Shown: piece after piece, positions 25,487-37,172 of the stretch
Numbering within the stretch: the stretch's first letter is position 1
How the letters are laid out: every line of letters starts with the position of its first letter
From: Chrysomallon squamiferum
Lineage: Eukaryota; Animalia; Mollusca
Direction: 5' to 3'
Assembly: GCA_012295275.1 (NCBI GenBank)
Contig: CM022673.1
Location: forward strand, 10,168,001-10,232,000
DNA length: 64,000 bases
The notes under the pieces: model-generated
The model's database searches: none
Told to the model about the DNA's origin: nothing
Seen by the model: the letters and a program-made list of their open reading frames with translations, nothing else
Position numbers and translations under genes: made by a program

Positions 25487-25817
25487 TTTTATTGTTTATT
25501 AAAACAATAAATAACTGATTCGCGTGCTGTCGGAATCAAAACTAATTACTGTGAGTATTTGGAGAAGGCTAATTACGACTCATAATTGTCTTTCTCTTGC
25601 CCGAAGCTGTTAACTCAGGTGGAAGCCAGTCTCCGATTCATTAAGTTCCACGAAAATTTATTCCGCTTGTTGTTTATTCTGACTTTGACGGTTTGTCGTT
25701 CTGTGTGCCGCTTCTGTCACTTCTCTCCTCTGATTTATAATGTTTTACTCGGCATAAAAACGAGATACGAGAACCGTAGAGCGGAGACGAGACTTTCCGT
25801 TTGACTCCAGACGAAAG
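25487..25817 (+). promoter_or_regulatory. Putative promoter and non-coding exon 1 of peptide precursor gene P1
   Basis: TTTATAA at 25734 and CATAAAA at 25753, then a strong donor AAAG|GTAAGT (GT at 25818). The block recurs nearly identically upstream of P2. The P1 ATG is preceded by an acceptor (TTCTAG ending 28480), which requires an upstream exon. Confidence 0.7.
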
Positions 25818-26890
25818 GTAAGTAAGTAGCTTGTGCTGTTTTCAGTTCTACTCACAATGTATTACGACATGCGAGAAGGTTTTCTTCGTTTTAGCTTTCT
25901 TTTTGCGTGTGTTCAAAAAATTTGTTGAGAGACAGAGAATAGGTAGAAAGACACAGAGATAGGCAGGCAGACGGATAAAATAGAATGACCGACAGAGATA
26001 GATATCTGAACACATAAAAATCAGTTAGATAGATAGATAGATATATAGATAGATAGACAGACAGATATATAGACAGATAGATATATAGACAGAGAGACAG
26101 ACAGACTGATAGATAGATAGATAGATGGACACATATAGATATATGCATAGATAGATACAAAGATAGACAGAGCCTCAGCCATAGAGGTAAACAGACAATC
26201 AGACAAATAGAGAGATACTCAGACAAACAGATATACTGACTAGCAGACATAGTTAGATACAAATACAGACAGAGAGATAGTCAGTGGGACAGACAGACAG
26301 ATAGAGAGATAGATATTCTTATGTTCATTTTAATATGTTTATGTACTAGTTTTCTCTTCCTTTAGTTTCTTAGTTTTATATTGTAAAGCACCTTTGAACA
26401 TATGAAATACGTAAAGTGTGAAAAATTAATATTACAGAATGATGATAATAATAATAATAATAATAATAATAATAATAATAATAAGGACAACAAGAACAAG
26501 AACAGTAGTAACAATAATATCAGTAGTAGTAGTAGTAGTAGTAATAGTAGTAGTAATAGTAATAGTAGTAGTAGTAATAATAATAATAACAACAATGACA
26601 ATAGATGTTACAAATGTATAAATTGAAATGGTCTTTACCTCTTCGAAATTCCAAGCAAAAGAAATTATTTAACTGGACAACGTATGCAAATATCTAAATT
26701 TCAGAATTATAAAACTAAAAGTCACAAAACTGTGGCACTGGTAAGAAAATCTGTCTTTAATCTGTATATGTAATGAATAGTACGGGATCCGATAAACGAT
26801 TTATTAAAACTCGTTACAGAACGAAATCGTTGTGTTATTATATTTCACTAGATATCATCACAGATATTAAAGATTTACAAGAAAATAATA

Positions 26891-27217
26891 CAGGTACCGG
26901 ACCAATTATCCGGATCCCTGAAATCCGGAAAGACCAGAAAACCGGAAGTTTTTTCCATGACGCTATTTTCAAAGTTCGCGCGCGCGGGTGTTGTCCTCAC
27001 CAGACTGGAACTACTCTTTCAAGCCGCGTGGCGTTCATTCACTCGCCGTATTATTTACGTGGTGAGTCGCCACAGTTGTGTATCGTCAGTTTTTTTTATG
27101 TTTTAAATTTTAAAATGTTTATGCCTAATTATTTACGTATTTAGATGCCTTGGTACCAGAAAACCGGAAAATCCAGAAAAATCGCAATGCCTCAGGCCCC
27201 AAGGAGTCCGGTATCTG
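26891..27217. mobile_element. Tc1/mariner-pogo (Tigger-like) MITE in the P1 intron
   Basis: TA|CAGGTACCGGAC ... GTCCGGTATCTG|TA: terminal inverted repeats with TA target duplication; internal CCAGAAAACCGGAA repeats; no transposase. Confidence 0.8.
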
Positions 27218-28502
27218 TAACGTTACAAAAGACTAAATACGGACTGATAGTTTCTCTAGCTGAAACTTTATATCTGATCGGAATAGTCCGTGCGTGATGA
27301 CGTCAGAACTACTGAAAAATGGCGACGCCAGGATATATTTTTTAAATGTTTGCGTATTCATGAAAATTAGACGACAAAATCGAATAAAACACAAAATAGA
27401 AATATGCAAGATATAATTAAGACGATTTCTTCTTTTCACAAGATTTACACTTTAGACATGTTGATTGTGAAAGAGATCTTGTACCACAAAAGATTTCGTT
27501 TCTCTCATTAGAGTTTTACTAATATTACTAATTAGTTTCTCAGTTTTATGAACACTGTCAGTAATGGAATAGTATATACTACACGACGGATACACACACA
27601 CACACACGCACACACGCACACAACATAGGTACACCTACATATACAGAAAGAGAGGGACCCACACAATAACCATTGTGGATAAAACTTCATTAGCGATATT
27701 CTTGTTTATACAATTTTTAAATTTAATTATTAACCCAAACTACATTCATTGATACAAAACACACGCTCAGCTGCTGAGATGTGGAGGTATTAACATGTGT
27801 GTGTGAGACACAGAGAGAGGAAAATGTGAAAGAGATTTGTATCACTGTTGAGTTTGTTTTTGTGGTAACTCTTGCTGGATGTTTGTTTTATTTTATTTTT
27901 TTTTTTTTTTCTTCATTACAGTTTTACTACTATTGCTAATTACTTTTCAAGCTTTCTAACAGAAAGCCATACAGACTATTGTAGATAGAAATTCTTGCTT
28001 ATAAAATTTGAAAATTAAATATTAACATAAACTAATACCTCTAAACTGTTGAGATATGATAGGATTAACATGCAACTGAAATGAAGTTTTGATAATAGTT
28101 TTATATACTTTGTAATAAAATTCCTTCTAATTTATTATTATTATTATTATTTTTATTATTACTATTATTATTATTATTATTATTATTATTATTATTATTA
28201 TTATTATTACTATTATTATTATTATTATTATTATTATTATTACACTACCCCTATTTTTTCTTTTATTTTTTTTTTTTTTTTAAATTATTTTTTATGTATT
28301 TTGTTACAATCGAGTCTGTCTAGATATTTTGCACGCAGTGAAAACACGAAGGCGAGGGACGCTTATTCTTCGATTCTGTTACTTTTCGTAAATAAAACAA
28401 AATAAACTAATGTTATGTTACGCAATGTGTTTGTGTGTGTATATTTCTTTATTAATTTCTGTACATACATTCATTTCTAGACTGGCCAAACTGTAACTCG
28501 AC

Positions 28503-34422: not shown

Positions 34423-34735
34423 AGAGAGAGAGAGAGAGAGAGAGAGAGAGAGAGAGAGAGAGAGAGAGAGAGAGAGAGAGAGAGAGAGAGAGAGAGAGAG
34501 AGAGAGAGAGACAGAGAGAGAGAGAGAGAGGAGAGAGAGAGAGAGAGAGAGAGAGAGAGAGAGAGAGAGAGAGAGAGAGAGAGAGAGAGAGAGAGAGAGA
34601 GAGAGAGAGAGAGAGAGAGAGAGAGAGAGAGAGAGAGAGAGAGAGAGAGAGAGAGAGAGAGAGAGAGAGAGAGAGAGAGAGAGAGAGAGAGAGAGAGAGA
34701 GAGAGAGAGAGAGAGAGAGAGAGAGAGAGAGAGAG
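34423..34735. repeat. Long (AG)n microsatellite just upstream of the P2 coding exon acceptor
   Basis: About 310 bp near-pure run. Confidence 0.97.
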
Positions 34736-34828
34736 GTTAATTTATGTATATGTAATATCAAGTCTATTTTTTTTTTATTAATTTCTCTACATACATTTCA
34801 TTCTAGGTTGTTCAGACTGAATCTCGAC

Positions 34829-35098
34829 ATGGACATTGCGACGACATCCCTGACGATACTTCTAATATTCTACTGCGGCATTTGTTCTGTTTCGGCGAAT
34901 GCACTCACAGACTTCGGTGGTCCGAGGTCCAGGTTTATCAGAACTGGAAGAAGTCTCGGAATTCCTGAGCGGAGATACCTAGGTCTGGCTAAAAGACAAG
35001 GAAATCCGAATTTCCCTTCTTCAGGGGTCATATATATAGACGAAGGCAACGGCAAGGGTCATTACGTCGTTCGTCCATCTCCGCGAGGTGGAAAATAA
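34829..35098 (+). CDS. Diverged peptide precursor paralog P2 (89 aa, single coding exon starting at 34807)
   Basis: Signal peptide MDIATTSLTILLIFYCGICSVSA is 18/23 identical to P1; shares RSxFxRxGRxLGIPE, LAKRQ and terminal GK-stop; intact ORF; homologous acceptor TTCTAG ending 34806. Confidence 0.88.
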   Translation: MDIATTSLTILLIFYCGICSVSANALTDFGGPRSRFIRTGRSLGIPERRYLGLAKRQGNPNFPSSGVIYIDEGNGKGHYVVRPSPRGGK

Positions 35099-37172
35099 GG
35101 AATTCAATAGAACGTGGACACTTCAGAACTAACTTTATAACTTCTGTTTGACGATATTTGATTAAAGCAACTACAATTTAAGCTTGCTGTGTGTGTTATA
35201 CATACATGCATACATATAGATGCATACACACAGCCATACATACATACACACACATACATGCATACACACAGACAGACATACATACATACACATACATACA
35301 TACACACATACATACATGCATGCATACTGACACACAAGCATCCATAGATACAAATTCATGTTTGTAGATAAATACGCACTTACGCAAATAAATGCGTACA
35401 TACATACATACGTACCTACTTATATATATATACACACATATATACACATTCAAACACAAATATATAGACAAATCACATGTCATTTTATTTAGAATTATAT
35501 GGTCAAAAATAAGACAAAATATTTCATGGAGGTACGAAGAAGGTATTTCTTGGAATCGTCAAAGGTACGTTTTGCCAATGGTTAAATAAAATCCAGACAA
35601 ATTGTAACGTCTAGATAAGATATAAATGATATTTATCTACGAGGATGTATTCTATATATTTAGAATATAACTGAGAATTTATTCACATTAATATAATCCT
35701 TTTTGTTCATATCTACTTTTTGTTTTATGCGACTGACTGTACTCGGTCTGTCCAGTTAATTTTACGTTGGGGCAAGCTCGGTCTTTTAAAATGTTTGCAC
35801 TGGTACAGATTATTTGACGTACCAATAGTTTATAAACTACAGAATGAAAATGTCACGTAATCACTAGACTTCATACCAATGTCTTCTTTGTTACGGATGT
35901 CTCAGAAAGATCGCAGTTTGTTTGTGTCTTTCTTTAATGGGACAGAGGGACAATGTAAAACTCTCATAAAGATTAAATTTATAGCTAAAGGGAGATAATC
36001 ATTCAAACCTTCGTTTACATCTCTCTCTCTCTCTGTCTGTATCTATCTATCTATCTATCTATCTATCTATCTATCTATCTATCTGTCTATCTATCTATCT
36101 GTCTATCTATCTATCTCTGTATCTGTCTGTCTATCTATCTGTCTATCTATCTATCTGTCCATCTATCTCTCTGTATGTCACAAAACCACACACATTCTCT
36201 CTCTCTCTCTCTCTCTCTCTCTCTCTCTCTCTCTCTCTCTCTCTCTCTCTCTCTCTCTCTCTCTCTCTCTCTCTCTCTCTCTCTCTCTCTTCTACCCATC
36301 TATCTATCTCTCTGCTTTGTCGTTATGGACGTTCTCTGCCAGTAAAAATAGGTTTCTCCTAACTCGTGTTAAAATGTGATAAATTAATCAATAGAAAATT
36401 AACTTCAGTAAAATTGTTAATTGCTTACTATCTGTTGAAGTGTTAGTTAACGCAGAAACGAGGTTGATTTAGAGGACATAATTAACAACAAAACAACAAC
36501 AACAACAACAACAACAACAATAATAATAATAATAATAATAATAATAATAATAATAATAATAATAATAATAATAATAATAATAATAATCGTAATAGTAATA
36601 ATTCCCATAAAAGCTTATAGCACATTTGTGGTAGTGTAGTGGTAGTAGTAGTGGCAGTGGTAAAAGTACTAATAGTAGTAGTTTAGGTTGTGATAAAAGT
36701 GGCAGCAACAGTAGCAGCAGTAGATATAACAGTGAAGCTAAATTAGACAACAAAAATAATAAACAAACTTTTTCTTGTTTAAAGGTCTTCAAATCCTGCA
36801 TACAAACTTATATTTACGCACATACACACATGCATACACACCAAGCAGATATTTAGAGTCCGTAGATTCAAACTGAAAAGGTCTGTGGCAGAGGGATAGG
36901 CTAAATAGACACATAACTGTTAGAAGCCGAGGTAGTCGTGTTTATTAGCAGGGTTCACCATTCTCCTTAGAATATAAGACTTTTTATCGATCAGGTCATT
37001 AATTGAGGTCGTGCTCAACTTTGAATCGGAGAAATAATAACTCATACACACACACACACACACACTGGAAACGTTACAAAAATAAAACACACGTAATTAA
37101 GACGTCTTTGAACCGAGGGTTATCCTGCGAGAACCTGCGTTGTAACGCAATACCAAACGTGTGTACGTTTTT

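What the first reader, a model, noticed from the sequence alone, without database searches (positions are those of the whole stretch)
25487..35170. Tandem peptide-precursor pair: regulatory and signal regions conserved, mature peptides rewritten (toxin/pheromone-like evolution)
Seen: ~300 bp of promoter/exon 1/donor differ only by scattered substitutions and a few indels, the signal peptides are 18/23 identical, and a 15-nt 3' UTR motif is conserved. Yet in P2 the ~40-aa acidic pro-region is gone, FLRF-amide has become FIRT-amide and the YIRI-GK cassette is lost. New predicted products appear: pQGNPNFPSSGVIYIDEGN-amide and GHYVVRPSPRG-amide. The net indels keep the reading frame, and GR, KR and GK processing sites are retained. 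Established: conserved signal/UTR with a hypervariable mature region typifies conotoxins and other exocrine peptides recruited from neuropeptide genes. Inference: P2 is a neofunctionalised secreted peptide gene, not a decaying copy. Gene conversion of the 5' block is an alternative explanation.
Basis: partly seen in the sequence, partly recalled or inferred. Interest (0 to 1): 0.8.

Follow-up and report, generated by a model that had tools for sequence, protein, structure and literature searches.

The report
Duplicated snail neuropeptide gene, rewritten copy
Two side-by-side copies of a short gene related to FxRIamide neuropeptide precursors, likely from a deep-sea vent snail, share an almost identical predicted promoter while the second copy has lost the family's signature peptides but kept an intact reading frame, so it is likely a fast-changing nerve-cell paralogue rather than a toxin.

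Summary
The tandem pair is real. P1 (138 aa) is a short, undescribed offshoot of the molluscan FxRIamide precursor family. Its best match is an uncharacterised Gigantopelta aegis protein with the same layout, and the neighbouring guanylyl cyclase gene also matches G. aegis. P2 (89 aa) lost 108 nt of pro-region and both signature motifs, but kept the signal peptide, splice-site consensus, three processing sites, the poly(A) signal and the reading frame across four indel-bearing intervals (chance about 0.012). It is present in a second sample. The toxin reading is not supported. The 5' core differs at 4 of 182 sites against 36-42% of silent sites, with a sharp edge inside the intron, which points to recent gene conversion and shared expression. 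Cone-snail toxins recruited from neuropeptides show the opposite: a replaced 5' UTR. No robust dN/dS above 1 was found; the C-terminal value depends on the alignment (0.57-2.25). The L-to-I change also occurs in P1 of the second sample. The YIRI stretch may have been rewritten by two compensating frameshifts. Expression is untested. The scan had not reported this locus or a look-alike.

The parts
25425..25874 (+). P1 5' block: predicted promoter, non-coding exon 1, donor after 25817, first 57 nt of intron
   Evidence: 85% to 33198-33619 over 452 columns; donor consensus; exon status inferred, no RNA
25636..25874 (+). Likely recent gene-conversion tract, P1 side
   Evidence: 4 mismatches in 182 to the donor; 2 in 53 in the intron start, then 35 in 73 beyond, Fisher p 2e-8
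25818..28480 (+). P1 intron in the 5' UTR (GT..AG), predicted
   Evidence: consensus ends in the sequence
28503..28919 (+). P1 coding sequence, 138-aa short FxRIamide-type precursor
   Evidence: phmmer E 3.6e-7 to G. aegis XP_041365802.1, and 1.3e-6 to 7.2e-4 to three multi-copy FxRIamide-type precursors
28503..28571 (+). P1 predicted signal peptide (23 aa)
   Evidence: hydrophobic core ending in VSA, judged by eye; no predictor run
28572..28700 (+). P1 acidic pro-region and first KR
   Evidence: net charge about -8; also present in P0001 and P0006
28701..28733 (+). P1 predicted SMRSKFLRF-amide with GR
   Evidence: sequence; FLRF-GR conserved in P0001, P0006, P0009; FIRF in run X1
28797..28826 (+). 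P1 predicted pyroGlu-NGAYIRI-amide with GK, followed by the degenerate IPSSAF-type unit
   Evidence: same cassette as ends FxRIamide precursors
28986..29000 (+). P1 15-nt motif holding the predicted poly(A) signal ATTAAA
33198..33619 (+). P2 5' block: predicted promoter, exon 1, donor after 33566; likely conversion tract 33384-33619
33567..34806 (+). P2 intron in the 5' UTR (GT..AG), predicted; holds an AG repeat at 34423-34735
34829..35098 (+). P2 coding sequence, 89 aa, derived and shortened paralogue
   Evidence: a P2-type contig in run X1
34898..34951 (+). P2 predicted 16-aa peptide ending FIRT-amide, with GR
   Evidence: sequence; Arg38 lies three places before Arg41, fitting the monobasic pattern in PMC8557429
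34997..35095 (+). P2 predicted 31-aa pyroGlu-capped, amidated C-terminal peptide; internal GK a weak site; 35000-35012 may be P1's YIRI codons read in another frame
35153..35167 (+). P2 15-nt motif holding the predicted poly(A) signal ATTAAA

Best explanation
P1 and P2 are tandem duplicates of a short gene related to FxRIamide neuropeptide precursors, likely in a peltospirid vent snail, and P2 is the shortened copy that keeps an open frame and is predicted to be secreted from the same nerve cells as P1, because recent gene conversion likely copied the promoter and exon 1 between them. P1 would be cut at KR, GR and GK into an RFamide, an RIamide and a tail peptide. After duplication P2 lost the pro-region with its KR, changed RF to RT, and lost the RI-GK unit, possibly through an 8-nt and a 7-nt deletion that compensate each other. 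It would now yield a 16-aa FIRT-amide and a 31-aa capped, amidated peptide, probably poor ligands for the parent's receptors, acting as co-released modulators under partly relaxed selection. Shown: homology, direction of the losses, frame retention, the 5' identity pattern, presence in two samples. Inferred: transcription, splicing, tissue, processing, conversion, receptor behaviour.
For: Family: 4 hits at E<=0.001 among 1.84 billion representatives, one same-layout G. aegis protein and three multi-copy FxRIamide-type precursors; the IGK-(I/L/M)P(S/A)S cassette is in 7 of the 8 proteins tested, all but P2, and in oyster and Lottia FxRI precursors in a supplement. Taxon and orthology: a neighbouring cyclase exon is 77% identical to a G. 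aegis protein, and both G. aegis hits list a contig of 84,917,595 bases. Constraint: 4 of 4 intervals have net lengths divisible by 3, (1/3)^4 = 0.012, with the anchors in frame at posterior 1.0 in a codon-blind pair-HMM; RF-to-KRQ dN/dS 0.34 and 0.36, bootstrap P(pN/pS>=1) 0.015; neutral simulation keeps start, stop and an open frame in 2-18% of runs. Conversion: 4 of 182 versus 27 of 63 silent sites (p 1e-14) and 39 of 108 in the 3' UTR (p 4e-15); sharp edge 57 nt into the intron; the core differs no more than P1 does between the window and X1 (17 of 736). Second sample: 11 of 13 listed differences of X1 record 8 match window P2.
Against: No RNA or peptide evidence for either gene. With the DNA-only alignment the whole-ORF dN/dS is 0.96 and the post-signal value 1.09, as relaxed selection would give. 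The same alignment gives 2.25 after KRQ (pN/pS interval 1.07-3.17), as positive selection would give; sampled alignments give 1.07-1.35 with intervals spanning 1. P2's excess of amino-acid changes against outgroups is modest (13 v 6 and 12 v 5; two-sided p about 0.17 by hand for the first). No P2 orthologue was found among 1004 candidates. P2's coding sequence in X1 was not read. Conversion is inferred from two sequences only. A distal enhancer could still move P2 to another tissue. P1's neural expression is assumed from its family.
Confidence: 0.5

Rival explanations
1. P2 is a slowly decaying duplicate. It is still transcribed because conversion renews its promoter, and selection only removes frameshifts and stops, but its peptides have no receptor.
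For: Both motifs that the orthologues keep are gone in P2. Whole-ORF dN/dS 0.96 in the DNA-only alignment. An open frame without stop arises neutrally in 12-37% of simulations. No orthologue found.
Against: Purifying signal between the RF motif and KRQ in both alignments; GR, KR-Q, terminal GK, stop position and poly(A) motif all kept at silent divergence of 0.5-0.6; present in a sample whose P1 differs by 2.3%.
Confidence: 0.27
2. One reading: P2 was recruited to an exocrine gland as a toxin, pheromone or allohormone, and its mature region is under diversifying selection.
For: Signal region less diverged than the rest even at silent sites (4 of 18 v 23 of 45, p 0.05). dN/dS 2.25 after KRQ in one alignment. 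[quoted passage not shown]
Against: Conus doppelgangers keep the coding region (about 75%) and replace the 5' UTR (about 31%), the reverse of this pair. The C-terminal dN/dS falls to 0.57 with a codon-aware alignment and spans 1 over sampled alignments. No cysteines in the mature region. Two copies only in the window. Closest matches are from a symbiont-bearing vent snail.
Confidence: 0.12
3. Sub-hypothesis on the 5' block only: it is held near-identical by strong purifying selection on promoter and UTR, without conversion.
For: The block centres on a TATA-like site, a short exon and the donor, and identity steps down outward (98%, 86%, 64%).
Against: It runs 57 nt into the intron at 2 mismatches in 53 and ends abruptly. 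The exon-2 part of the same UTR is only 68% identical. Its divergence equals that between two samples of one gene.
Confidence: 0.15

Closest known systems
Molluscan FxRIamide (FVRIamide, S-Iamide) precursors, e.g. Lottia ESO97689.1, Elysia KAK3762039.1
   Same: Signal peptide, acidic spacer, and a terminal cassette KR-xFxRI-GK-IPSSAF..., ending in a final RI-G(K) unit.
   Different: Canonical precursors carry 9-25 RI-G copies in the four fetched. P1 carries one plus one FLRF-GR unit, and its last two units are degenerate. P2 carries none.
Gigantopelta aegis LOC121380864 (XP_041365802.1) and unnamed ENA proteins P0006, P0009
   Same: Same layout end to end: signal, acidic pro, basic site, FLRF-GR-N, spacer, AKR, (F/Y)x(K/R)I-GK, P(S/A)SVF, terminal G. 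Likely orthologues of P1.
   Different: Only 28-38% identical to P1 by different alignments; mature peptides differ outside their last residues; annotated as uncharacterised; no P2-like copy found.
Conus doppelganger toxins, including an FxRIamide doppelganger (PMC12621736)
   Same: A neuropeptide gene copied locally, on the same chromosome as its parent.
   Different: There the 5' UTR is replaced by a venom-gland exon and the peptide mimics the parent. Here the 5' block matches the parent and the peptide is lost.
Aplysia and Theba egg-laying-hormone gene families (PMC5051934, passages)
   Same: Duplicated molluscan neuropeptide precursor genes with altered products.
   Different: Their extra copies are shown in exocrine, non-neural tissue and keep an ELH-like peptide. 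For P2 no tissue is known and the family motif is gone.
FMRFamide precursors
   Same: One FLRF-GR unit; Pfam FARP matches residues 68-77 of P1 weakly.
   Different: 10.4 bits is below the 15.5 cut-off; no FMRF repeats; none of the four search hits is an FMRFamide precursor.

Membership tests
FxRIamide precursor family | Signal peptide and basic cleavage sites | tested here: met
   Both ORFs by inspection; no signal-peptide predictor was available.
FxRIamide precursor family | Sequence homology to FxRIamide precursors | tested here: met
   P1: E 1.3e-6, 1.1e-4, 7.2e-4 in 1.84 billion. P2 only through DNA homology to P1; alone it scores E 0.025 at best against P0001.
FxRIamide precursor family | Terminal cassette RI-GK followed by (I/L/M)P(S/A)S | tested here: met
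   P1 yes; P2 keeps only the FPSS remnant.
FxRIamide precursor family | Many copies of xSSFxRI-amide | tested here: not met
   P1 one YIRI-G, P2 none, against 9-25. P1 is filed as a short variant, P2 as a derived paralogue, neither as canonical.
FxRIamide precursor family | Neural expression, amidated products, receptor activation | not testable with these tools
   No RNA holder listed.
FMRFamide precursor family | Pfam FARP above the cut-off and FMRF repeats | tested here: not met
   10.4 bits against 15.5 for P1, no match for P2.
Oyster RxIamide precursor | Repeated DFRxI-GKR units | tested here: not met
   Precursor seen in the supplement of PMC4200219; no such unit in P1 or P2.
Neuropeptide-derived venom peptides (doppelganger toxins) | 5' UTR replaced by a toxin-type exon unlike the parent's | tested here: not met
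   97.8% identical to the parent against about 31% in Conus.
Neuropeptide-derived venom peptides (doppelganger toxins) | Positive selection on the mature region | tested here: inconclusive
   0.57, 2.25, medians 1.07-1.35 with intervals spanning 1.
Neuropeptide-derived venom peptides (doppelganger toxins) | Venom- or exocrine-gland expression | not testable with these tools
   No tissue RNA available.

The most novel reading that the evidence does not exclude
P2 is a newborn neuropeptide gene caught in the act: its peptides were rewritten partly by pairs of compensating frameshifts, while gene conversion keeps its promoter locked to the parent's, so the same neurons co-release a new ligand or an antagonist of the parent RFamide and RIamide.
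Probability: 0.2. Interest if true: 0.6.

Novelty: new variant of a known kind. Interest (0 to 1): 0.35.

Why it matters
It adds an undescribed, condensed FxRIamide-type precursor carrying one RFamide and one RIamide, so far seen only in vent-snail-type sequences. It also gives a small natural case of how a peptide paralogue can lose its family motifs while staying intact. If the frameshift-pair and promoter-conversion readings hold, it shows a route to new peptide ligands that leaves no trace in protein searches. It also warns that 'conserved front, variable mature region' is not by itself a toxin signature.

Tried and rejected
Single-protein word search with P1: 6 candidates, none scored. 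Exact look-up of P1 and P2: absent. Pfam: nothing at the cut-off. Atlas: P1 and P2 could not be read; with P0001 it gave only generic peptide-hormone precursors at 0.89-0.92 and no structural match, not used. RNA: no RNA holder listed for P2; three RNA runs gave only short repeat-type matches to either gene, no evidence either way. The X1 contig for P2 did not appear when laid on P2 but did on P1, so its coding variants were not read; its lower depth (29.6 v 51.5) is not interpreted. No own genome held, so no check for further copies outside the window or for a canonical FxRIamide gene. No third copy in the window. RxIamide and FMRFamide membership rejected. The idea that the adjacent guanylyl cyclase is the receptor was dropped: adjacency is the only support, and no complex was predicted. 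No folding was run, as short peptide precursors are uninformative (Atlas pTM 0.19 for P0001). Literature searches for compensatory frameshifts in neuropeptide paralogues (none of 15 listed held the phrase) and for promoter conversion (2 papers, not read) gave nothing used. PMC6565119 not held. PMC9793003 and PMC2114117 passages added nothing.
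Full report
OBSERVATION. The window is AT-rich animal DNA full of microsatellites. It holds two related ORFs on the + strand: P1 at 28503-28919 (138 aa) and P2 at 34829-35098 (89 aa). 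Each lies 22 nt behind an AG acceptor and has an upstream block ending in a consensus GT donor. The upstream blocks match at 92.6% over 312 nt and occur twice only in the window. Signal peptides share 18 of 23 residues. A DNA-only alignment puts four gaps in P2's coding sequence, of 108, 18, 15 and 6 nt. The 15-nt 3' motif is real, and it contains ATTAAA in both genes; from recall this is the common variant poly(A) signal, and a GT-rich run follows it in both. P2's internal GK has no basic residue 3-6 places upstream, the pattern given for monobasic sites in PMC8557429 (passages), so a single 31-aa C-terminal peptide is likelier than two.

WHAT P1 IS. A word-based search found nothing. A full phmmer pass over 1.84 billion representatives gave 4 hits at E<=0.001. 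The best is Gigantopelta aegis XP_041365802.1, uncharacterised, 155 aa, with the same layout from end to end. The other three are multi-copy precursors of the FxRIamide type. A profile search added one unnamed ENA cluster with the same short layout (P0006, P0009); its two other hits, at E 3.6 and 6.1, were beetle FMRFamide-type proteins and were set aside. The link to FxRIamide is the terminal cassette, RI-GK followed by IPSSAF-like residues and a last RI-G(K) unit. It is present in 7 of the 8 proteins tested, all but P2, and in oyster and Lottia FxRI precursors seen in a supplement of PMC6523705. P1 has one RI-G unit and one FLRF-G unit against 9-25 RI-G units in canonical precursors, so it is a condensed variant. 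The gene downstream (exons 38719-63402) is a receptor guanylyl cyclase whose single hit at E<=1e-10 among 204 candidates is G. aegis at 77%. Both G. aegis proteins list a contig of 84,917,595 bases, which suggests conserved linkage. I infer a peltospirid or near relative. G. aegis is a vent snail with endosymbionts (PMC7895826, search listing only). I found no description of this short precursor in paper searches or in motif searches of the supplements of four neuropeptide surveys. Several of those files were cut when stored or are scans, and subscription papers are not held.

IS P2 ALIVE? The outgroups keep the pro-region and both motifs, so P2 is the derived copy. Four intervals between DNA anchors each changed length by a multiple of three, about 0.012 by chance, and a codon-blind pair-HMM puts those anchors in frame at posterior 1.0. 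Between the RF motif and KRQ dN/dS is 0.34 or 0.36 (bootstrap P(pN/pS>=1) 0.015). Neutral simulation keeps start, stop and open frame in 2-18% of runs, and an open frame alone in 12-37%. Run X1 holds 0.58 of P2's sampled words. About 0.44-0.47 of P1's 31-mers are unchanged in the same run, so P2 shows no sign of faster change there. X1 also has a contig whose listed differences from P1 match window P2 at 11 of 13 places. Against this, the DNA-only alignment gives 0.96 for the whole ORF, P2's coding variants in X1 were not read, and there is no RNA evidence.

IS IT TOXIN-LIKE? After KRQ, dN/dS is 0.57 with a codon-aware alignment and 2.25 with MAFFT. Over sampled alignments pN/pS has medians 1.07-1.35 with intervals spanning 1. 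Positive selection is therefore neither shown nor excluded. Part of the ambiguity has a concrete cause: 13 nt of P2 (35000-35012) match P1's YIRI codons (28808-28820) at 10 of 13 places in a shifted frame, between an 8-nt and a 7-nt deletion, the second removing the GK codons. Its posterior is 0.64, 0.51, 0.51, 0.87 and 0.20 over five parameter sets. Lability is a family trait. P1 is only 28-38% identical to its orthologues, while 13 of the 14 cyclase matches are 71-96%. X1's P1 differs from the window at 9 codons, 5 of them changing the residue, including FLRF to FIRF and Asn100 to Ser inside predicted mature peptides. The Conus study (PMC12621736; abstract, part 2 of the text and section 9 read) reports that toxins recruited from neuropeptides, FxRIamide among them, have 5' UTRs about 31% like the parent and coding regions about 75% alike. 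This pair shows the reverse.

THE 5' BLOCK. From 25636 to the donor there are 4 mismatches in 182 columns, against 27 of 63 silent sites (p 1e-14) and 39 of 108 3' UTR sites (p 4e-15). Identity continues into the intron (2 of 53) and then collapses (35 of 73; p 2e-8). The exon-2 part of the same UTR is 68% identical. The core differs by 2.2%, the same as P1 between two samples (17 of 736). Recent gene conversion is the simplest reading; direction unknown; two sequences cannot prove it. Its consequence would be shared proximal regulation, which favours expression with P1 over a move to a gland.

MECHANISM AND VERDICT. Most likely (0.5) P2 is a still-functional, fast-changing neural paralogue, co-expressed with P1, that would release a FIRT-amide 16-mer and a capped, amidated 31-mer. 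Slow decay behind a renewed promoter is the main rival (0.27). Exocrine recruitment, with precedents in Theba and Aplysia ELH genes (PMC5051934, passages), is possible but has little support here (0.12). Divergent tandem copies of neuropeptide genes and conversion between neighbours are known kinds of event (recalled). What is new is the condensed FxRIamide-type precursor and a motif-less copy possibly rewritten by compensating frameshifts. New variant of a known kind; interest 0.35.

Noticed in passing
window 38497-63402 (+): Multi-exon receptor guanylyl cyclase (natriuretic peptide receptor-like) gene starting about 3.5 kb after P2; 14 tblastn matches to G. aegis P0010. Apparently on the same G. 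aegis contig as the P1 orthologue.
   Followed up: partly
window 30502-31262: Element with terminal inverted repeats between P1 and P2 and a decayed transposase start; resembles a Tigger/pogo DNA transposon (label recalled, ends printed).
   Followed up: partly
window 29854-30088: Intergenic stretch whose first part matches P2's intron (34269-34416, 71%) and whose second part matches the end of P1's intron (28313-28370, 76%): a dispersed repeat or the relic of a third tandem unit.
   Followed up: partly
window 29297-29398 and 29705-29807: Inverted repeat, 84% over 103 nt (88% over 152 nt unmasked), just downstream of P1.
   Followed up: no
window 56677-58760: 25-nt minisatellite array of about 2 kb inside a cyclase intron, open in several frames.
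   Followed up: no
P0006 and P0009: These unnamed orthologues carry 2 and 3 copies of a 10-aa repeat in the pro-region, showing length variation of the pro-region elsewhere in the family.
   Followed up: no
window 34798-34806, run X1: X1's P2 has two changes just before the acceptor that create a second AG 6 nt upstream; in the 5' UTR intron, so probably harmless.
   Followed up: no
window 8033-8332 (+) and 6813-7166 (-): Non-repetitive open frames of 99 and 117 codons in the left part of the window; not identified.
   Followed up: no
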